A stretch of DNA of 64,000 bases from contig JAXGMI010000001.1 in assembly GCA_040768745.1 (NCBI GenBank), positions 1,408,001 through 1,472,000 of the forward strand. Direction: 5' to 3'. The notes beneath the pieces were generated by a model. The model saw nothing but the letters and a program-made list of their open reading frames with translations. It was not told where the DNA came from and ran no database searches. Both the position numbers and the translations under genes were made by a program. The stretch comes from Desulfomicrobium sp. (GTDB lineage Bacteria; Desulfobacterota; Desulfovibrionia; Desulfovibrionales; Desulfomicrobiaceae). Position 1 is the first letter of the stretch. The number at the start of each line of letters is the position of its first letter. Below, one piece after another: positions 1,671 to 17,560 of this stretch.

Positions 1671-2406
1671 GGGTCATGACTAGAACAGCGGGTTTGTCCT
1701 GATGATTTTGAGCAGGACTTTATAGATGTTCTGGCCCCTATTGTTAAATCGAAATTCGCATTCTTTCAAATGCAAGAAAAAGGTTACCTTGCTGACACCT
1801 CTGAACTTGGCAAGGCGAGTTTTCGAATAGCCCCAAAAGCTTTCTATGCCATTGATATGGCTACGTTCATTGGCAAATTCATTGTCTCCGTGGTTGACCC
1901 TGAAATGCTTCTGGTACCCTATATCCACCAGGCCGTTATAGCCGCGCCATCCATCGGAATGGATGACGCTTTCGACGCTGACTCGACCTCGGATAACCGC
2001 CTGAAGTGTGGCACGGCTGCAATCAGGCACGATCTCGGTATAGACTTGGCCTTGGCGCTTGAAGATGCCAAACACAATGGTTTTACTGCTTGCGCCACGA
2101 CCTCGGAGTCCTTTGACTCGGCGAGGCCCGAAGTAGCTTTCATCAACTTCGATTTCCCCGAGAACTGGGGCTTGTCGCTCGCAGTACTCAGCGATTCGTT
2201 GGCGCAAGGCCATGAGATACCTGTTCACGGTATTTCTGTTTAGGCCAGTCACCAGGGCGATCTGGGATGCATCCAGATCAAAGGAAAAGAGCTTCAAGAA
2301 TTGCCTGAATTTGGCCTCTGAAATTTTTGAACGATTTGCGTACTTATTAACCCTTGCCATGACTCGATCCTAGCAGATTTGTTATCCGCTGTTCTAGTCA
2401 TGACCC
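1671..2406 (-). mobile_element. IS1595-family insertion sequence, copy 1 (736 bp)
   Basis: 21-bp perfect terminal IR GGGTCATGACTAGAACAGCGG; 8-bp target duplication TTATTTTT at 1663-1670 and 2407-2414. Confidence 0.95.
1680..2360 (-). CDS. IS1595-family (ISXO2-like) DDE transposase
   Basis: Motifs EIEVDESYFG, IHSDGWRGY, HINGIESFW, LKECEFRFN. Confidence 0.95.
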   Translation of the reverse strand: MARVNKYANRSKISEAKFRQFLKLFSFDLDASQIALVTGLNRNTVNRYLMALRQRIAEYCERQAPVLGEIEVDESYFGPRRVKGLRGRGASSKTIVFGIFKRQGQVYTEIVPDCSRATLQAVIRGRVSVESVIHSDGWRGYNGLVDIGYQKHFRVNHGDNEFANERSHINGIESFWGYSKTRLAKFRGVSKVTFFLHLKECEFRFNNRGQNIYKVLLKIIRTNPLF

Positions 2407-5266: not shown

Positions 5267-6002
5267 GGGTCATGACTAGAACAGCGGGTTTGTCCTGATG
5301 ATTTTGAGCAGGACTTTATAGATGTTCTGGCCCCTATTGTTAAATCGAAATTCGCATTCTTTCAAATGCAAGAAAAAGGTTACCTTGCTGACACCTCTGA
5401 ACTTGGCAAGGCGAGTTTTCGAATAGCCCCAAAAGCTTTCTATGCCATTGATATGGCTACGTTCATTGGCAAATTCATTGTCTCCGTGGTTGACCCTGAA
5501 ATGCTTCTGGTACCCTATATCCACCAGGCCGTTATAGCCGCGCCATCCATCGGAATGGATGACGCTTTCGACGCTGACTCGACCTCGGATAACCGCCTGA
5601 AGTGTGGCACGGCTGCAATCAGGCACGATCTCGGTATAGACTTGGCCTTGGCGCTTGAAGATGCCAAACACAATGGTTTTACTGCTTGCGCCACGACCTC
5701 GGAGTCCTTTGACTCGGCGAGGCCCGAAGTAGCTTTCATCAACTTCGATTTCCCCGAGAACTGGGGCTTGTCGCTCGCAGTACTCAGCGATTCGTTGGCG
5801 CAAGGCCATGAGATACCTGTTCACGGTATTTCTGTTTAGGCCAGTCACCAGGGCGATCTGGGATGCATCCAGATCAAAGGAAAAGAGCTTCAAGAATTGC
5901 CTGAATTTGGCCTCTGAAATTTTTGAACGATTTGCGTACTTATTAACCCTTGCCATGACTCGATCCTAGCAGATTTGTTATCCGCTGTTCTAGTCATGAC
6001 CC
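5267..6002 (-). mobile_element. IS1595-family insertion sequence, copy 2 (736 bp)
   Basis: Same 21-bp IRs and identical transposase protein as copy 1; own 8-bp target duplication TTTTTTTA at 5259-5266 and 6003-6010. Confidence 0.95.
5276..5956 (-). CDS. IS1595-family transposase
   Basis: Translation identical to 1680-2360. Confidence 0.95.
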   Translation of the reverse strand: MARVNKYANRSKISEAKFRQFLKLFSFDLDASQIALVTGLNRNTVNRYLMALRQRIAEYCERQAPVLGEIEVDESYFGPRRVKGLRGRGASSKTIVFGIFKRQGQVYTEIVPDCSRATLQAVIRGRVSVESVIHSDGWRGYNGLVDIGYQKHFRVNHGDNEFANERSHINGIESFWGYSKTRLAKFRGVSKVTFFLHLKECEFRFNNRGQNIYKVLLKIIRTNPLF

Positions 6003-8060: not shown

Positions 8061-8081
8061 GTGAGTATACTGATCAAAAAA
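8061..8081 (+). repeat. attL core GTGAGTATACTGATCAAAAAA
   Basis: Identical to 17540-17560; preceded by GGAGG at 8051, the apparent native RBS of the mtaD-like gene. Confidence 0.93.
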
Positions 8082-8192
8082 TACGGTTTCTCTCACTTTC
8101 TCCGAAATACCGTCTAGCCCTTGATATTCCTTGATTCCGGCTGAAAATATCCCTTGACGTTCTCCATATTTTTGCCTATTTTTGCCTTGAAA

Positions 8193-8211
8193 GTTGGGTT
8201 GAGGGTTGGGT
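8193..8211 (+). promoter_or_regulatory. Putative integrase arm-type binding sites (GTTGGGT x2)
   Basis: GTTGGGT at 8193 and 8205 (12-bp period); the same pair with the same period occurs at 17475 and 17487. Confidence 0.6.
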
Positions 8212-8231
8212 CAAAACTGGAGGCGGTGAAC

Positions 8232-9371
8232 ATGGCGGCACAGGGCAGAAACAAGACCAAGTATCCTGGCGTCTATTATACCGAAGGCAAGTCCACGACG
8301 GGCAAGTCCATTCGCCGCTACTATGTCGTCTTCAAGCGTGAGGGGAAGGTTTATGAAGAGGCCGCCAAGGTGCTGGTTGACGGCGGCCCTGATACCCGTC
8401 CGGCCGAGACCCCACAAGAGGCCAGCGCATGGCGCTCCCGCCGCATTGGCGAAGTTACCCAACAGCAGGGGAAGGGCAAGCCCGCCCTGACCGTGGATGA
8501 AATCTGGTCAAAGTGGGTTGAAGGCATGAAAGGTCGTGGCGGGCTGCACGCGGCGAGAAGTCGGTACAAGATGCACGTCGGCCGGTTTTTCGGTAAGCGG
8601 GTAGCCTCTGAGTTGTGCACGTTCGACGTGACCAGATTCCGCCGCGATCTGGAGCGGAATGGGTTGGCCCCTGCTTCCGTCAAGTTCTGCATGTCGCTTC
8701 TCTCGCAGCTTCTCAGGTGGGCAGCGGATCAAGACCTGATCCAAGACCCTGGACTCAAGTTTGATTATCCCAAATTCGACAACCAAAAGACCGAGAGCCT
8801 GACCCCGGAGCAGATCGGCCGGTATTGGGAAGTTCTCGACGCATGGCCGGATCAGCATATTGCCGACTTCTTTCGGGTCATGCTGCTGACGGGTGTTCGT
8901 AAGACGGCGCTGGCAAATGTCCGGTGGGATGACATCAACTTTGAGAACGGTTTTTTGACTCTCCGCGCCGAGACCTCCAAGAGTGGCAAGGTCAAGTCAA
9001 TCCCGCTTTCCGCTCAAGCATTGTCCGTTTTCAAAAGCATCCCCAGAACAGAGGACTCTGATCTTGTTTGGCCGGGCTGGAATGGCCCGCGCACAAATTT
9101 CAGCGGTCATGGGAGAGCTATCGCCAAGGCAGCAGGCTTGCCAGATAGTTTTCGAGGGTGTCATGGTCTTCGCCATGCCTTCGCGTCCGCCATGGCCAGC
9201 AGTGGGCGCGTTGATCTGTTCACGCTGCAAACTCTGCTGACCCATTCCAGCCCAAACATGACGCAGCGCTACAGTCACTTGTCCAGCGACGCTCTGCGCA
9301 GGGCGGCAGCGGTGGCTGACGACGTACTGGTCCCAGGTCCGGCGCTGAAGGTGGTGGCCGGGAAGGAATAA
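8232..9371 (+). CDS. Tyrosine recombinase / integrase
   Basis: LLTGVRK (R), TSKSGK (K), HGLRHAFAS (HxxR), LLTHSSPNMTQRYSHL (H..Y); GGAGG RBS. Confidence 0.95.
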   Translation: MAAQGRNKTKYPGVYYTEGKSTTGKSIRRYYVVFKREGKVYEEAAKVLVDGGPDTRPAETPQEASAWRSRRIGEVTQQQGKGKPALTVDEIWSKWVEGMKGRGGLHAARSRYKMHVGRFFGKRVASELCTFDVTRFRRDLERNGLAPASVKFCMSLLSQLLRWAADQDLIQDPGLKFDYPKFDNQKTESLTPEQIGRYWEVLDAWPDQHIADFFRVMLLTGVRKTALANVRWDDINFENGFLTLRAETSKSGKVKSIPLSAQALSVFKSIPRTEDSDLVWPGWNGPRTNFSGHGRAIAKAAGLPDSFRGCHGLRHAFASAMASSGRVDLFTLQTLLTHSSPNMTQRYSHLSSDALRRAAAVADDVLVPGPALKVVAGKE

Positions 9372-10073: not shown

Positions 10074-10173
10074 CGACTTAAAAGCCCCTCTCATAAGCGT
10101 TTCTTCTCTCTATTTTCTAGCCGTGTTCTGCAATCCCGCAGTTCACGGCTTTTTACTTTTCCGAGGTAATCAC

Positions 10174-10353
10174 ATGGAACGAGTAAACGAGAAAGAAGCG
10201 GCAAAGTATCTTGGAATGTCAGTCAAGTGGTTGCAGCAGTCGCGGTGCTACGGACGCGGCCCGAAGTACATCAAGATCGGTCGGAGCGTCCGCTACAACG
10301 TCACCGATCTGGATCTGTACATCAAGTCCCGCACGATCAACCCAGCAGTGTAG
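10174..10353 (+). CDS. AlpA/excisionase-like HTH protein
   Basis: NEKEAAKYLGMSVKWLQQSR..GRGPKYIKIGRSVRY; GAGGT RBS. Confidence 0.88.
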   Translation: MERVNEKEAAKYLGMSVKWLQQSRCYGRGPKYIKIGRSVRYNVTDLDLYIKSRTINPAV

Positions 10354-10591: not shown

Positions 10592-10825
10592 ATGATGACA
10601 ATGAAAAAGCCCGCCGGGCAAGGGCGAGCTTATGAGACCGGGCGCGGCGGTGATCCAAAAATCCGCAAAAAAAGCATGGCCGAAAATGACATTATTGTCA
10701 AGCTCTGCCATGCTTACGCCGGTCTCTTGAACGCTATGTTCATGCCCCTCTGCAATAATGCATCGGCATCGTTGGCAAGTTCATTTCTACCCAACCGGGA
10801 AACCCAACTCGGGAGGGCAAAATGA
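10592..10825 (+). CDS. Small hypothetical protein upstream of the replicase
   Basis: AAGGAG RBS; MMTMKKPAGQG...; ATGA overlap with rep. Confidence 0.5.
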   Translation: MMTMKKPAGQGRAYETGRGGDPKIRKKSMAENDIIVKLCHAYAGLLNAMFMPLCNNASASLASSFLPNRETQLGRAK

Positions 10826-13200
10826 ACGCAGAAATTACAAACGGCATCTTTATCGACACGCTTTTCGGCAAGCTCCCTGCAGACGCTTGCGTACCTGTGG
10901 CAAGCATCAAAGACGTATCTGCCCCAGGATGGCCAGCTGATAGTTTTGTGAATGGCCAGGAATTTACGGTGCGTCATGGCTGGAATAGCTACTATTGCTT
11001 GGGCATCCATCGCAAGGACGACCCCCAGCCACGGAGAAAAGAGAGCTGCCTAGGTCTATGCATGGTCATGCTCGACGACGTTGGGACGAAGGCAGATCGT
11101 GACAAGATCGATCTGACGCCGACCTACGCAATAGAGACCAGCTCTGGCAACTTCCAACTTGGCTACAGGCTGACCGTCCGCGTCACCGACATGGGACTTA
11201 TTGATCGGCTGGGCAAGGCAATTATCAGGAAGGGACTCTCTGACCCTGGAGCTGGTGGTCTAGGGACGAGATACGCCAGGCTCCCACAGTGCTGGAACAG
11301 CAAGTCCAATCCGCCGTTTCAGTGCCGATTGACCGAGTGGAACCCCGAGATTGCCTACTCTCCACAGGAGCTGATTGACGGTCTCGGTCTGGAGTTGGAC
11401 CCGCCCAAGCCCGAGCGCAAGGCCGCCGATCCCACCAAGAGGCAGTGTCTCTCTGAAATTGACCCGTATGTCCGCAAGGCTCTGGAAAATGAGTGCGCAT
11501 CCGTGGCGAGCGCTCCACAGGGACAGCGCAACGCGCAACTAAACCAGTCATCCTTCGCAATTGGTCAGTTTGTCGGCGGCGGTGAACTTGACGAGCAAGA
11601 GGCCGTCAACGCTCTGCAGCAGGCAGCGGCGGCTTGTGGGCTGGGAGAGACCGAAGCTGACAAGACAATCCGGTCGGGCCTGACTGCAGGCATGGCTGAA
11701 CCCCGCCCGGCCCCAGGAGAGAGTGATTGGAACCCCGACGGCGGGCAGCGGGCCGGGAAGAGTAAATTCGTAAATTCGTTAAATTCGTCTGTTAGTAACG
11801 AAGATCCTGACGCCTGGGCCCCTACGATCAGGACATGGCCCAAACTCGAACGAGCTGCGCTTCCCGGCATCGTGGGTGACTTCGTAGACCTGGCCACGGA
11901 CGGCAGTGAAGCAGATCCGGCGGCGGTGCTGGCAACCATGCTTGTGCGCTTTGGCGTGGAGGCTGGCTCTCCCGAGCCAAGCGCCCGCCCCCACGTCTAT
12001 GTGGGCGAGTCCAGACATGAATCCCGCATCAATGCCGTCATCGTCGGCAGGTCGGCCAAGGCCAGAAAGGGCACGTCCGGTGCTCCCGTGGCCAGGCTGT
12101 TCAAAGTTCCCGAGGGCAGCGTGGACGCCCCTGTCATGGGTGCAACAAGTCTAGGCCCTCTCTCGACGGGTGAGGGCATCGTCTACGCAGTGCGTGATGC
12201 TCTGGAGTCGTGGGACGAGAAAGAGCAGGAATTCAAGGTCACAGACCCCGGCGTGAAGGACAAGCGCCTCTACGTCCAAGAGGAGGAGTTTGCAGCGGCG
12301 ATCAACGCCGGGAAGCGTGACGGCAATACTCTTTCGGCTACCCTTCGCGCCCTGTGGGATTCGGGAACCCGTAGCCCGATGACCAAGACCTCAAGGACGA
12401 AATGCACAGACGCGCACGTCGGTATCCTGGCCCATATCACAATCGATGAATTGGCCATGAGCCTGTCTGCCTGCGACAAGCTGAACGGCTACGCCAACCG
12501 CTTTCTGTGGGTGCTGGCCAGACGTACCAAGCGCGTGCCCAGGCCCCGGAGAATGCCCGACGATCTGTTCATCCCGATCCGCAATGAAATATGGCGTCGG
12601 CTTAACCTGGCTCATGCTGCTGGTCGGATGCGTCTGACCCCGGCTGCGGGCGATCTGTGGGATGCGGAATATGATCGGCTGACCGAGGACCGGCCCGGCA
12701 TCGCTGGTGCTATTACGGCGCGTGCAGAGGCGCAGGTGGTCAGGCTCTCCATGATCTATGCCCTCTGTGGCGGGCAACCCGAGATCGACGCCGCGCACGT
12801 CCAGGCAGCGCTGGCCCTGTGGCGGTATGCCCAAGCATCTGCAGAGTATATCTTCAACGAGGACTCTGTGGGCAGCAAGCTGGACTGCAAGGTCAAAGAG
12901 ATCCTCTCGTGCGTGCCTGCTGGGATGAGCTTGACCGAGATCCACAACGCCACGGGGAACAACCACAAGGCTGCAGATCTGCGTAACTCCATCCAGAGGC
13001 TTGTGGACGCCGGGCTGGTCAGAAGCGAGTCAGTCAGATCCGAGGGTGCGGCGAAGCCGAAGACCGTTTTTTTCTCAAACGAAGAAACTAATTTTACGAA
13101 TTTACGAATTTACTCCGACGAGGAGCAAGACAGTAAATTCGTAAATTCGTTAAATTCGTACATTCGTACGGATGAAATCCCCGACGAGGTGACGATATGA
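10822..13200 (+). CDS. Replicase: RepB-like primase + PriCT-like + DUF3987 domains
   Basis: MLDDVGTK...ETSSGNFQLGY...TRYARLP (RepB-type primase); GQRNAQLNQSSF (PriCT-like); STGEGI...EEEF...LWDSG (DUF3987/YfjI-like); C-terminal winged-helix-like segment. Confidence 0.8.
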   Translation: MNAEITNGIFIDTLFGKLPADACVPVASIKDVSAPGWPADSFVNGQEFTVRHGWNSYYCLGIHRKDDPQPRRKESCLGLCMVMLDDVGTKADRDKIDLTPTYAIETSSGNFQLGYRLTVRVTDMGLIDRLGKAIIRKGLSDPGAGGLGTRYARLPQCWNSKSNPPFQCRLTEWNPEIAYSPQELIDGLGLELDPPKPERKAADPTKRQCLSEIDPYVRKALENECASVASAPQGQRNAQLNQSSFAIGQFVGGGELDEQEAVNALQQAAAACGLGETEADKTIRSGLTAGMAEPRPAPGESDWNPDGGQRAGKSKFVNSLNSSVSNEDPDAWAPTIRTWPKLERAALPGIVGDFVDLATDGSEADPAAVLATMLVRFGVEAGSPEPSARPHVYVGESRHESRINAVIVGRSAKARKGTSGAPVARLFKVPEGSVDAPVMGATSLGPLSTGEGIVYAVRDALESWDEKEQEFKVTDPGVKDKRLYVQEEEFAAAINAGKRDGNTLSATLRALWDSGTRSPMTKTSRTKCTDAHVGILAHITIDELAMSLSACDKLNGYANRFLWVLARRTKRVPRPRRMPDDLFIPIRNEIWRRLNLAHAAGRMRLTPAAGDLWDAEYDRLTEDRPGIAGAITARAEAQVVRLSMIYALCGGQPEIDAAHVQAALALWRYAQASAEYIFNEDSVGSKLDCKVKEILSCVPAGMSLTEIHNATGNNHKAADLRNSIQRLVDAGLVRSESVRSEGAAKPKTVFFSNEETNFTNLRIYSDEEQDSKFVNSLNSYIRTDEIPDEVTI
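11761..11788 (+). repeat. Iteron-like repeat (TAAATTCG x3) inside rep
   Basis: AGTAAATTCGTAAATTCGTTAAATTCGT, identical to 13132-13159. Confidence 0.85.
13096..13159. repeat. Inverted and tandem iterons, putative replication origin
   Basis: 19-bp perfect IR, 13096-13114 / 13132-13150, built from TAAATTCG units; AT-rich flank. Confidence 0.8.
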
Positions 13201-13720: not shown

Positions 13721-13877
13721 CATTCACGAGCGCATCGCCACGGCTGAGGACGAAATAAAGGGCCTTGAATCCATGATCGACGCCAGGACGCGGAAGTTAT
13801 GGGCTGAGATCCAGAAGCTACAGGCCGAAGTCCTCGAACTACGCAACAAAGACAACGCCAAGGAGCCACAAACATGA
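13707..13877 (+). CDS. Small coiled-coil protein (56 aa, below the ORF-track cutoff)
   Basis: GAGGT RBS; MRTPDIHERIATAEDEIKGLESMIDARTRKLWAEIQKLQAEVLELRNKDNAKEPQT*; ATGA overlap with the next gene. Confidence 0.6.
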   Translation: MRTPDIHERIATAEDEIKGLESMIDARTRKLWAEIQKLQAEVLELRNKDNAKEPQT

Positions 13878-14332
13878 AGCCAAGTGCATGGTTAGGAGTT
13901 GACCCCGGAAAGTCGGGTGCGTGCGCCGTCATCCACGACGGTGGGCACCTCGTTGCAGATTGGCCTGGAGATCCGGCTGGAGCTGCTGAAGTGCTGCGCG
14001 GGTGGCTGGACCGCTTCGAGATCCGTCTGGCGGCCCTGGAGAAAGTTGGAGCCCGGCCCGGTCAAGGTGTCTCGTCTATGTTCAGTTTCGGCCGCAACCT
14101 CGGGGTGTGGGAAGGTATCTTTGCCTGTCTGCGCATCCCCTACGTCATGCCGACGCCGCAACAGTGGCAGAAAGGACTTGTCATGCCATCCGACGGGGCA
14201 GACCCGAAGGACCGCGCCCTGACCGTAGCCAGGCGACTTTTCCCGGACGCAGACTTGCGCTTGAAAAAGCATGACGGCCGAGCTGACGCCCTGCTGCTGG
14301 CATGGTGGGCAAGGAGACAGACTGCAATATGA
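13874..14332 (+). CDS. Phage-type RuvC-like Holliday junction resolvase
   Basis: GVDPGKSGA, LEKVGARPGQGVSSMFSFG, PQQWQK, HDGRADALLLA. Confidence 0.85.
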   Translation: MKPSAWLGVDPGKSGACAVIHDGGHLVADWPGDPAGAAEVLRGWLDRFEIRLAALEKVGARPGQGVSSMFSFGRNLGVWEGIFACLRIPYVMPTPQQWQKGLVMPSDGADPKDRALTVARRLFPDADLRLKKHDGRADALLLAWWARRQTAI

Positions 14333-14517: not shown

Positions 14518-14723
14518 AAGAAAATAAACCCCCGGTCAGTTGTCCTACTTGTGGCGGGTGCGACACGATACGACGCAGAGGTCCACAAGGTCTATGCGAG
14601 ACCTGTTATCAGCAGAGACACGAATGTCGGAGCTGTGGCCAGCGCTTTTTGAGCTTTTGGGACTTGTCCTCGACGCGCTGTTACGGTGCCGCCCCCCGTC
14701 TGGAGGTGGTCGCCAATGCCTGA
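14514..14723 (+). CDS. Zinc-finger protein, Ogr/Delta-like candidate activator
   Basis: CPTCGG...RHECRSCGQRF; GGAGG RBS. Confidence 0.55.
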   Translation: MKENKPPVSCPTCGGCDTIRRRGPQGLCETCYQQRHECRSCGQRFLSFWDLSSTRCYGAAPRLEVVANA

Positions 14724-15174
14724 AAAAACAGCTCGGAAACAGACCTCCACACGATTCAAGCCGGGCAGATCCGGCAACCCTGCAGGACGCCCCAAGGGTG
14801 CGCGGAATAGGGCCTCTGTGTTGGCGCAGGCGCTCATGGAAGATCAGACCGCGGCCGTGGTGCAGACCGTCATCAATGCGGCCCTCACGGGCGATATGAC
14901 CGCGTGCAAGCTCATTGTGGAACGGCTCATTCCGCCGGTGAAGGAACGGACCATTGACGCGGATCTGAAGTTGCCCGCGACCATTACGGCCGCAAATGCC
15001 GGTGCTGTTTTTGCGGAGATCTTCAAGGCCGTCTCCGGCGGGCGGCTTGTCCCTGGCGAGGGCAAGGTGCTGGTGGAGATGATGAACGCCTATTTGAGCG
15101 CCTGCGAATACAGCGAGCTGTCCGAGCGCATTTCCGAGTTGGAGGAAACAGCTCCGAGGAACAAGCGATGGTAG
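14716..15174 (+). CDS. DUF5681-domain protein (terminase-small-subunit-like)
   Basis: RFKPGRSGNPAGRPKGARN signature; GDMTACKLIVERL; GGAGGT RBS. Confidence 0.8.
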   Translation: MPEKTARKQTSTRFKPGRSGNPAGRPKGARNRASVLAQALMEDQTAAVVQTVINAALTGDMTACKLIVERLIPPVKERTIDADLKLPATITAANAGAVFAEIFKAVSGGRLVPGEGKVLVEMMNAYLSACEYSELSERISELEETAPRNKRW

Positions 15175-15877: not shown

Positions 15878-16822
15878 ATGGCAGTTCAGAAATTAGGCAA
15901 TGGCCGATTCAAGGTTTTTCACAAGGAAGTGGCCGCGCCCACGGCGGAAATGGAACACCTGCGCAGTCAGGCCCCGCGGACGCCCACGGGACTTTCCGGC
16001 TTTTTGCAGGGTAGCCTGCACGCGAACGGCTTCAAACAACTTCGCGCGTATGTCGCGAACAGTGACAGCGAGTGGACGCGCCAACAGATTCTCGACATGG
16101 ACAACTCCTTGTCGAACATAGCCGACGAGATCCAGTTGGACGACAAGTTGACCAAGGCCCGCAACACCGTGCTGGACGTGGATTTGACCGACGCGGCCCG
16201 CCGCAAGCGTGCGCTGGTGATTATTGCGGACCTGCTGGCCGACATTCACGGACGCCACGGGCGAGTGGTGGCTCGCGCCATGACAGCGCTGAATGAAGCC
16301 GTGGACGTGGTGAAACTGGCCCTTGCGCCCGACCTGACCGGCAACGAGCAGGTGCGGGAGCTGCGAGCGCAGGAAGTCCGCCGCGCCATCTTCGACACGG
16401 ACAAGGGGGAACGTGCGGCACTGGTGCTGGACCTGGGCAACCGTGCGGCCCTGGAAGGGCTGCTGGCCGTGGAAAGTTGTCCCTTGGGACGCTTGGTTGA
16501 GCCGGAGGTTGTGGGCCAGGCGAAGCGTGGCGCGCTGTCCAAGATGGGCGTGGACTTTCTGCTGGATCAGATCGAGGACCGCCGGGACATCCTGCGCAAC
16601 GTGGCCGCGCGCTGCGACATGCTGGAACAGGGCATCAGAGAGTTTCTTTCGGCCTATGGCGTGAAGCCCGCCGCGCCTGTGACCTGGATAGTAGCCACGG
16701 CGTCCGCCATCGAGGAGAGCGGACGATTCTTGACGATTCCGGGTGGCGGTGGCGTCCATTACCGCGCCCCGGAACCGCCGCCGGTTGAGGATGAGGGCGG
16801 AGAAGGCGAAGGCGAGGGATAG
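15878..16822 (+). CDS. Hypothetical helical protein (314 aa) with acidic Gly-rich tail
   Basis: GGAGGT RBS; GC3-rich codons; ends PPPVEDEGGEGEGEG. Confidence 0.8.
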   Translation: MAVQKLGNGRFKVFHKEVAAPTAEMEHLRSQAPRTPTGLSGFLQGSLHANGFKQLRAYVANSDSEWTRQQILDMDNSLSNIADEIQLDDKLTKARNTVLDVDLTDAARRKRALVIIADLLADIHGRHGRVVARAMTALNEAVDVVKLALAPDLTGNEQVRELRAQEVRRAIFDTDKGERAALVLDLGNRAALEGLLAVESCPLGRLVEPEVVGQAKRGALSKMGVDFLLDQIEDRRDILRNVAARCDMLEQGIREFLSAYGVKPAAPVTWIVATASAIEESGRFLTIPGGGGVHYRAPEPPPVEDEGGEGEGEG

Positions 16823-17284
16823 TTCAATATCGCCTCCCGCGATTCGACATAGCCCGCTGAAGTATTCGTTGCCTGTGACAATCAGACATCCGGCGTCAAA
16901 TTGACACGTGACAATTTGAACCAGCTCGCGCACGCGCGGGACTGACAGTGACGGAAATGGGGCAACGGTTGCACGATTAACCAGCTCGCGCACGCGCGGG
17001 ACTGAATATCACTTCGTAAGTCAACTTACGAAGTCCGAGGACCAGCTCGCGCACGCGCGGGACTGAACATCCGGCGTCAAATTGACACGTGACAATTTGA
17101 TAGACAAGGCCCGACACCTTTCAGAAATCCACAAAGCCCCTTCACCCCTATGGCCCGTCCTTGTATCCGCACTGCTTGCTAAAGAATGGTCCGTCAAAGA
17201 CACAAAGCAGGTTGAGGATGAGGGCGGCGAGGGCGGAGAAGGGACCGAGGGATAGTTCAATCGCGCCTCCCGCGATTCGACATA
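16783..17284 (+). repeat. Imperfect ~70-bp direct repeats (16783-16851 and 17210-17284) bracketing the array cassette
   Basis: GGTTGAGGATGAGGGCGG...CGAGGGATAGTTCAAT..CGCCTCCCGCGATTCGACATA present twice. Confidence 0.9.
16920..17066. CRISPR. CRISPR-like mini-array (3 x 26-bp repeats; 34- and 35-bp spacers), no cas genes in window
   Basis: ACCAGCTCGCGCACGCGCGGGACTGA at 16920, 16980 and 17041; hairpin-forming. The repeat structure is certain; CRISPR function is not. Confidence 0.5.
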
Positions 17285-17353
17285 AAGCCCGGTCAGTGGG
17301 ATGCTGGCCGGGCATCTACTCAAGGCCGCATCGCAAATTGCGTGCATCATATA

Positions 17354-17387
17354 GGTCATCCGGCCGAGTGCTGGGTGGCCTTTTTTT
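17354..17387 (+). terminator. Rho-independent terminator at the right end of the element
   Basis: GGTCATCCGGC-CGAGT-GCTGGGTGGCC-TTTTTTT. Confidence 0.8.
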
Positions 17388-17539
17388 GTGATGACAATCC
17401 CCGGATAATCGAAGAAAAGTGTCCCATATCCTCGACGGTGAAAAGCCCGCTAATGGACTCCCGATGCGTCATTTGTTGGGTTAAAAGTTGGGTAGAGCTT
17501 TCGTGTTATATATATTTCAAGGCATTAGAGGTGTGAAGA

Positions 17540-17560
17540 GTGAGTATACTGATCAAAAAA
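17540..17560 (+). repeat. attR core (first 7 codons of the amidohydrolase gene)
   Basis: Identical to 8061-8081. Confidence 0.93.

What the first reader, a model, noticed from the sequence alone, without database searches (positions are those of the whole stretch)
16853..17255. The array interrupts a captured gene fragment and is flanked by a 34-bp duplication
Seen: ACATCCGGCGTCAAATTGACACGTGACAATTTGA occurs both before repeat 1 (16886-16919) and after repeat 3 (17067-17100). Deleting 16920-17100 restores one stop-free frame with no start codon: PAEVFVACDNQTSGVKLTRDNL|IDKARHLSEIHKAPSPLWPVLVSALLAKEWSVKDTKQ. Inference from pattern recall, not a search: this resembles the middle of phage ParB-like/DNA-methylase fusion proteins, where a variable palindrome lies between an AEV motif and an HLxEIH...WPxLV...W motif. 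S1 and S2 also read as such segments (DGNGATVARL; HFVSQLTK). The layout S0-R-S1-R-S2-R-S0 looks as if an array circle recombined into the native locus of one of its own spacers, or as if the array grew by duplicating the palindromic unit. Both differ from Cas1-Cas2 polar spacer addition.
Basis: partly seen in the sequence, partly recalled or inferred. Interest (0 to 1): 0.8.

Follow-up and report, generated by a model that had tools for sequence, protein, structure and literature searches.

The report
Array collecting phage ParB docking palindromes
A small virus-parasite island carries a CRISPR-shaped mini-array, in a genome where no CRISPR enzymes were found, whose spacers are DNA palindromes; one spacer still sits inside the phage gene piece it came from, so such arrays likely collect the docking sites of phage DNA-clamp proteins.

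Summary
The flanks are the middle of a phage ParB-HTH-DNA-methylase gene (84 homologues). Genes of this family carry a single-copy palindrome at this spot that co-varies weakly with the HTH recognition helix, so S0 is likely the protein's own docking (parS-like) site. S2 matches another member's in-gene palindrome at 14 of 16 bases; S1's source was not found. The 355-bp cassette is a recent insertion at the right end of a 9.5-kb att-bounded satellite-like element, and close relatives lack it. The host has no detectable cas genes or other array. An unrelated 9.3-kb satellite-like contig carries a second array with the same 16-base repeat core and palindromic spacers, again without cas. Best reading: a cas-less array family on satellites that stores phage ParB docking palindromes, caught here recombined into the source of one spacer. 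How spacers are gained and whether the array acts as DNA or RNA are not shown; sequence alone cannot separate crossover from an integrase intermediate.

The parts
8061..8081 (+). attL core, 21 bp, left end of a 9.5-kb integrated satellite-like element
   Evidence: exact 21-bp direct repeat with 17540-17560
8154..9371 (+). tyrosine integrase
   Evidence: PF00589 E 1e-20; phrog_1
10123..10353 (+). excisionase-like HTH
   Evidence: PF12728; phrog_66
10822..13200 (+). primase-helicase
   Evidence: phrog_4861, phrog_5311, DUF3987
13874..14332 (+). RuvC-like Holliday junction resolvase
   Evidence: phrog_1770 E 1.5e-31
14686..15174 (+). DUF5681 protein (small-terminase-like by recall, not by a call)
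   Evidence: PF18932 E 1.7e-15
15878..16822 (+). last gene of the element, 314 aa, unknown, predicted helical at low confidence; homologues in 3 of 60 relatives
16780..16856 (+). copy A of the gene end plus downstream motif (left border of the cassette)
   Evidence: 85% identical to copy A'; single copy in sister element L005 and in runs X3, X4, X5
16853..16885 (+). left flank of the ParB-HTH-methylase gene fragment (AEVFV motif)
   Evidence: adds 8 bits to the family profile; same spacing as P0003
16886..16919 (+). S0: 34 bp holding a 24-bp palindrome, the gene's likely docking site
   Evidence: palindrome score 9.5, at most 1 of 2000 shuffles; outer arms match the in-gene palindrome of L051, 24 of 34
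16920..16945 (+). repeat R1, 26 bp, hairpin
16946..16979 (+). spacer S1, 34 bp, weak palindrome, source unknown
   Evidence: score 6, p 0.02; no source among 24 viral hits
16980..17005 (+). repeat R2
17006..17040 (+). spacer S2, 35 bp, perfect 11-bp arms
   Evidence: score 11, 0 of 2000 shuffles; 14 of 16 to the in-gene palindrome of L050, same frame
17041..17066 (+). repeat R3
17067..17100 (+). second copy of S0
   Evidence: identical
17101..17210 (+). right flank of the gene fragment (HLxEIH...W...W motif)
   Evidence: 84 homologues; 85% nucleotide identity over 95 bp to L031/L032
17207..17291 (+). copy A' (right border of the cassette)
17353..17381 (+). terminator-like hairpin
   Evidence: consensus match only, about the chance count
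17540..17560 (+). attR core, overlapping the start of a host amidohydrolase gene

Best explanation
This is a CRISPR-shaped array without detectable cas genes, on a phage-satellite-like element, whose spacers are likely the in-gene docking palindromes of phage ParB-like DNA-clamp proteins, and which likely recombined into the captured gene piece that holds one of its own spacers. Shown: the layout; the donor family; the single-copy palindrome at this spot in family genes; palindromic spacers; the empty site in relatives; a second cas-less array with the same repeat core and palindromic spacers on another satellite-like contig. Inferred: (1) the palindrome is the protein's own loading site (weak co-variation with the recognition helix; analogy with ParB-parS); (2) an array with order R-S1-R-S2-R-S0 met the gene piece, crossed over once in the 34-bp S0, and either was already a 181-bp circle or lost the rest by repeat-to-repeat recombination, giving S0-R-S1-R-S2-R-S0; (3) the satellite picked up the 355-bp piece at its variable right end; (4) the benefit is at DNA level: extra landing sites let the satellite load or titrate the helper phage's ParB-methylase clamp, for instance to be methylated against restriction. 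The enzyme that adds spacers is unknown.
For: Donor family. In-gene palindromes score 7-12.5 in 10 distinct 75-nt windows against at most 6.5 in 38 control windows (the motif search caught 11 of 26 loci). The palindrome core is at one site in 10 of 10 phage contigs at up to 1 mismatch. Helix and palindrome-coded peptide co-vary over 59 segments, partial r 0.09, permutation p 0.0075; 5 of 7 helices with [ST]Q[VIC] go with the SQL class, which is 11 of 59 overall. S2 matches L050's in-gene palindrome 14 of 16, the only such hit in 175 kb; 18 of 300 shuffled palindromes hit anywhere. Second array: L147/L179, 31-bp repeat x4 plus a partial fifth, 36-bp spacers with palindrome scores 7 and 10.5 (twice), on a 9.3-kb contig with recombinase, terminase-small-like, ParA, primase and DnaB genes and no cas hit in 9 ORFs by Pfam or 6 by PHROGs. 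Ordinary type I-E-like spacers from two genomes of the same phylum reach 7 or more in 2 of 44. In 4 of 5 distinct spacers the palindrome centre lies 21.5-23.5 nt from the 5' end, nearly flush with the next repeat. No Cas1, RAMP, Cas6e, Cas7e or Csf2 in the host. Other small elements keep pieces of the same gene with the palindrome but without repeats: L031/L032, L045, plasmid NZ_CP016479.1, which suggests the site itself is what is kept.
Against: Only two arrays were seen here, and their shared 16-mer is shared by construction of the search (1 of 45 hits); the repeats differ outside it. No source was found for S1 or for the L147 spacers, and no intact donor with S0. The left flank alone is not significant (1.4 bits). 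The helix co-variation is weak and could come from linkage. As RNA, S0, S1 and one L147 spacer fold no more strongly (-3.5 to -5.7 kcal/mol) than ordinary spacers (0 to -11.9), so an RNA-guide role is not excluded by structure. The repeat shares a 10-nt hairpin core and the 61-bp period with type I-E-like arrays of the phylum. Binding, methylation and expression were not tested.
Confidence: 0.45

Rival explanations
1. An ordinary CRISPR mini-array. Cas1-Cas2 of another host made it, the palindrome bias comes from ParB footprints that protect 34-36-bp pieces during phage DNA breakdown, and spacer-protospacer recombination moved it into phage DNA. It works, or worked, as crRNA with a host Cas complex against competing phages.
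Against: No cas genes or matching array in the host; no Rfam CRISPR repeat match; no CRISPR array with the repeat's 3' 12-mer among 14 hits in 185,579 species genomes; no match in 24 other genomes of the genus beyond two single 3-mismatch hits; repeat lengths of 26 and 31 around one core; no leader; ordinary spacers are rarely palindromic (2 of 44).
Confidence: 0.25
2. The locus is an acquisition intermediate. An unknown integrase nicks on both sides of the protein-bound palindrome and joins the array to it in place, as in replicative transposition, so S0 and one repeat are duplicated; excision between the two S0 copies would release an array that has gained S0.
For: The duplicated unit has exactly spacer length; the native flanks are intact; the palindrome sits at a fixed place in 4 of 5 spacers; no Cas1 is at hand; the element encodes an integrase and a RuvC-like resolvase.
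Against: One example only; homologous crossover gives the same sequence with no new enzyme; L147 shows no such flanking duplication; the two elements share no candidate enzyme.
Confidence: 0.15
3. A neutral recombination scar: hairpins stall replication and template switches patch palindromic scraps together at a hot spot, with no selected function.
Against: Three identical repeats with 34-35-bp spacers from different sources, and the same design in L147, are not expected from random patching; no repeat-spacer array in 29 scrap-bearing or sister loci.
Confidence: 0.12
4. The spacers are templates for swapping the operator segment of the ParB gene (specificity switching).
For: S2 reads in the family frame and starts with a Tyr codon, as after the AEV motif.
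Against: The spacers lack the recognition helix that would have to change with the site; no flanking homology for gene conversion; no intact target gene in the genome (one search shows only the fragment matching this region).
Confidence: 0.03

Closest known systems
Viral CRISPR mini-arrays (review PMC11656645 and PMC8616872, passages read)
   Same: Few repeats and spacers on a mobile element, no cas genes nearby, at least one spacer from phage DNA.
   Different: The repeat is not identical to any host CRISPR repeat and the host has none; the spacers are palindromic operator-like sites; the array sits inside the source of one spacer.
Spacer-protospacer recombination between CRISPR loci and phages (Varble et al. 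2019, Watson et al. 2018; seen only as cited in PMC8616872; PMC6533911 not held)
   Same: A crossover in a spacer-length identity joins array DNA to phage DNA.
   Different: Here both phage flanks are kept and the spacer is duplicated around a three-repeat block, which needs a circle or a resolved cointegrate; no Cas system is known for this repeat.
Phage ParB-CTPase-fold / N6N4-methyltransferase fusions (PMC12704722, passages read)
   Same: The donor family has PF02195 plus PF01555.
   Different: The paper's main text has no occurrence of 'palindrom' or 'inverted repeat'; the in-gene palindrome and its capture are not mentioned there. Its supplements were not read.
ParB-parS, including parS inside parB (recalled)
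   Same: An HTH-bearing ParB-fold protein with a palindromic site in its own gene.
   Different: Phage-borne, fused to a methylase, hypervariable site; binding untested.
TIGR-Tas arrays (PMC12045711, passages read)
   Same: Cas-less repeat arrays on mobile elements; acquisition unknown; some loci have a ParB-like gene or palindromic stem-loop units.
   Different: No dual repeats or 8-12-nt spacers, and no Nop-domain hit in either element; ParB is here the source of spacers, not a partner gene.

Membership tests
CRISPR array | Identical short repeats regularly spaced by unique spacers of constant length | tested here: met
   3 x 26 bp, spacers 34-35 bp
CRISPR array | Spacers derived from mobile-element DNA | tested here: met
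   S0 within its gene flanks; S2 14 of 16 to a family palindrome; S1 unknown
CRISPR array | Repeat belongs to a known CRISPR repeat family | tested here: not met
   No Rfam match; only a 10-nt core shared with type I-E-like repeats; no CRISPR array among 14 genome-collection hits
CRISPR array | Cognate cas genes in the element or host | tested here: not met
   0 matches for PF01867, PF03787, PF08798, PF09344, TIGR03115 in a 99.99% complete genome; class 2 effectors were not searched genome-wide
CRISPR array | Leader next to the first repeat | tested here: not met
   Both ends are S0 and gene-fragment DNA
CRISPR array | Consistent PAM beside protospacers | tested here: inconclusive
   One protospacer only (5' CAG, 3' TAG)
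CRISPR array | Transcription and processing into crRNA | not tested
   No RNA reads were laid on the array
Viral CRISPR mini-array | Repeat identical to a host CRISPR repeat | tested here: not met
   No other array in the host; none in 24 genus genomes
Viral CRISPR mini-array | Spacers match related viruses | tested here: inconclusive
   Phage gene family identified, but no exact protospacer in IMG/VR or INPHARED
TIGR-Tas | Dual-repeat or stem-loop units with two 8-12-nt spacers, and a Nop-domain Tas gene | tested here: not met
   One repeat type, 34-36-bp spacers; no Nop hit
Phage ParB_N-HTH-N6_N4_Mtase family (donor of the fragment) | Sequence homology and domain order | tested here: met
   84 hits, best single-stretch identity 79%; 7 of 32 scanned proteins carry both PF02195 and PF01555 over cut-off
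ParB-parS-like site | The HTH binds the palindrome and loads with NTP | not testable with these tools
   Indirect only: position, single copy, co-variation p 0.0075
Phage satellite (PICI-like) | att-bounded, about 10 kb, integrase, excisionase, primase, no full structural module | tested here: met
   helper-dependent packaging not tested

The most novel reading that the evidence does not exclude
Phage satellites have a Cas-independent memory system that cuts out the protein-bound palindromic loading sites of phage ParB-like clamps at a fixed register and stores them between hairpin repeats, to hijack or disarm those clamps; this locus is the acquisition step frozen in place, with the array joined to the target gene and the new spacer duplicated.
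Probability: 0.25. Interest if true: 0.92.

Novelty: new variant of a known kind. Interest (0 to 1): 0.72.

Why it matters
It ties a spacer of a cas-less, palindrome-spacer array to its source gene with both native flanks in place, which turns an odd pattern into a testable rule: these arrays hold the in-gene sites of phage ParB-like proteins. If the sites work as DNA, satellites have an undescribed way to exploit helper-phage clamps and methylases. If the array is CRISPR-made, the locus is a natural snapshot of how mobile elements pick up mini-arrays by spacer-target recombination. It also gives phage ParB-methylase fusions a concrete candidate loading site and a helix-to-site code. Eight full-text searches gave no paper describing either the in-gene palindromes or such arrays; subscription journals and bioRxiv supplements were outside these searches.

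Tried and rejected
Exact 24-mer of the repeat and a paired 12-mer in IMG/VR: 0 hits. Paired 12-mer in 185,579 species genomes: 14 hits, all gene-end or low-complexity repeats on reading; L013 has two copies 61 bp apart at a gene end and was judged unrelated. Paired core in 400 genomes of the phylum: 4 others, none this array type; in 241 genomes of the phylum of G690: 0. Cassette in 300 genomes of the order, plasmids and phages: no real hit. Fragment peptide against cultured phages: chance hits only; P0004 against them: none. 16-mer cores of S2 and S1 in IMG/VR: 4 and 24 loci, best 19 of 35 and 23 of 34, none in a ParB-like gene. The array read as protein: 5 candidates, none scored. Type IV csf2 in 301 genomes of the order: none over cut-off. 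Whole-family profile over 401 genomes was swamped by ordinary ParB and methylase domains. Fold of the 314-aa neighbour: pLDDT 42, not searched further; Atlas look-alikes unnamed. Genome-wide palindrome lattice in donor phages: rejected for this family, one site per contig; in G938 the script picked a palindrome a few codons upstream of the usual spot, and the contigs are 39-100% complete. Assembly artefact: rejected.

Full report
Observation. A 26-bp repeat (R) occurs three times without mismatch, separated by S1 (34 bp) and S2 (35 bp), and an identical 34-bp unit (S0) stands before R1 and after R3. Neither R nor the spacers recur in the host genome, and a simple scan found no other CRISPR-like array. 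Run X1, which may be the source sample, rebuilds the array with S0 at about twice the depth of its neighbours, so this is not an assembly slip.

Setting. The array lies at the right end of a 9.5-kb element bounded by a 21-bp att core at 8061 and 17540. The element encodes a tyrosine integrase, an excisionase-like HTH, a primase-helicase, a RuvC-like resolvase and a DUF5681 protein, and no recognisable capsid or tail genes among the 13 element ORFs scanned. It is satellite-like. The whole 355-bp cassette (16852-17206) sits between two 85%-identical copies of the last gene's end. A sister element in G015 has one copy and no cassette. Relatives about 93-95% identical in runs X3, X4 and X5 skip the cassette; X3 follows copy A and X4 joins 16810 to 17226. 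The cassette is therefore a recent insertion, and A and A' correspond to two alleles that exist in nature.

The gene fragment. S0 plus the right flank has 84 homologues at E up to 0.001. Of 32 scanned, 7 carry both ParB_N and N6_N4_Mtase over cut-off and many others are pieces. The alignment shows ParB domain, HTH, AEV motif, a variable segment, then HLxxIH...W...W. With one period removed in a script the frame is open for 59 codons and scores 79.3 bits, against 71.0 for the right flank and 1.4 for the left flank alone; the AEVFV-to-HL distance equals that of P0003, a 79% identical hit. A common origin of both flanks is likely but rests mostly on that spacing. The closest DNA relative, L031/L032 (85% over 95 bp), is a longer piece of the same gene on another primase-bearing small element, with a different palindrome.

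The palindrome. In family loci the variable segment is a palindrome: scores 7-12.5 in 10 distinct windows, from the 11 of 26 loci that the motif search caught, against at most 6.5 in 38 neighbouring windows. It occurs at one site per contig in 10 of 10 phage contigs. Across 59 segments the recognition helix and the palindrome-coded peptide co-vary weakly after allowing for downstream similarity (partial r 0.09, p 0.0075). I infer a parS-like site read by the protein's own HTH; binding was not tested. S0 scores 9.5 and S2 11 (0.07% and 0.03% of host 34-mers reach these), S1 only 6 (7%). S2 matches the in-gene palindrome of family member L050 at 14 of 16 bases, in the same frame, with one compensated pair; it is the only such hit in 175 kb, and 18 of 300 shuffled palindromes hit anywhere. 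No exact source was found for S1 or S2.

The repeat. R folds as a hairpin, better on the + strand. It matches no Rfam family, and no CRISPR array among the 14 hits of a scan over 185,579 species genomes. It shares a 10-nt hairpin core and the 61-bp period with type I-E-like arrays in two genomes of the phylum. The host shows no Cas1, RAMP, Cas6e, Cas7e or Csf2. A 16-mer scan of IMG/VR gave 45 loci, one of them an array: L147 has four copies of a 31-bp repeat, a partial fifth, and 36-bp spacers with palindrome scores 7 and 10.5 (the latter twice); the DNA after the last full repeat holds a further hairpin. Its 9.3-kb contig encodes a serine recombinase, a terminase-small-like HTH, ParA, a primase and DnaB, and no cas hit. 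Ordinary spacers of the two control arrays reach 7 or more in 2 of 44. In 4 of the 5 distinct spacers the palindrome centre is 21.5-23.5 nt from the 5' end, which suggests oriented capture. The shared 16-mer is shared by design of the search, and two arrays are a small sample. Others describe clusters of ParB-gene scraps centred on palindromes without mention of a constant repeat (e1-5920148, e1-6213991).

How it most likely works. Satellites and small plasmids keep pieces of this gene that hold the palindrome (L031, L045, NZ_CP016479.1). Arrays with the R core appear to be a compact form of the same collection. The flanking duplication follows from one crossover in S0 between an array R-S1-R-S2-R-S0 and the gene piece, with the array either already a 181-bp circle or trimmed afterwards between repeats. 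A replicative integrase acting on the nicked site in place would give the same letters, so sequence cannot decide. I favour a DNA-level role, as landing or decoy sites for the helper phage's ParB-methylase, because the host has no Cas machinery and similar sites are kept without repeats. Against this, three of the five spacers fold no more strongly as RNA than ordinary spacers, and expression was not examined.

Comparison with what is known. It is shaped like a viral CRISPR mini-array (PMC11656645, PMC8616872; passages read) but fails the tests of a known repeat, a host system and a leader, so it is not filed as a member. Spacer-target recombination is reported (cited in PMC8616872; the primary paper was not held). 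ParB-methylase fusions in phages are known (PMC12704722, passages; no mention of palindromes in the main text, supplements unread). TIGR arrays differ in unit and partner (PMC12045711, passages). A recent language-model survey of noncoding arrays has no occurrence of ParB, palindrome or satellite in its main text (10.64898/2026.10.21.760802; supplements closed). Eight literature searches found no description of this arrangement.

Verdict. Real, well anchored to a donor gene family, and probably one of a small family of cas-less palindrome-spacer arrays. New variant of a known kind, with about a one-in-four chance of a new Cas-independent acquisition system. Interest 0.72.

Noticed in passing
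window 17500-17560: The element integrates at the start codon of a host amidohydrolase gene and supplies a new ribosome-binding-like sequence just before it, so the gene's expression may now depend on the element.
   Followed up: no
window 16868-16883: A degenerate second copy of the S0 palindrome, with one good half-site, lies just upstream of S0 at the place where the closest relatives have theirs; the variable segment may have been replaced or shifted by nine codons.
   Followed up: partly
window 16920-17063: R1-S1-R2-S2 is one open frame in which S1 and S2 both read in their ParB-like frames; no protein homologue, probably chance.
   Followed up: yes
proteins P0001, P0002, P0003, P0005, P0012, P0019; locus L045:3560-4450: Tandem or chimeric pieces of this and other ParB-like genes, each with a different helix and palindrome segment, are common in metagenome proteins.
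   Followed up: partly
L208:2205-2537 (NZ_CP016479.1): A 7.4-kb cyanobacterial plasmid carries a 110-codon piece of this gene family covering HTH, palindrome segment and HL motif: a cultured example of site capture.
   Followed up: partly
window 11761-11788 and 13132-13159: A 28-bp exact repeat within the primase gene, with inverted partial copies; likely origin iterons.
   Followed up: no
run X1: The sample holds at least one further related element (a 792-bp contig with 18 differences and a different sequence before 17286), which gives the partner needed for the A/A' recombination; a contig end at 17540 may mark the empty site.
   Followed up: no
window 1680-2360 and 5276-5956: Two identical transposase ORFs of one insertion sequence.
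   Followed up: no
L179:2747-2840: Short direct repeats between the second array and parA, possibly a plasmid-type centromere or operator.
   Followed up: no
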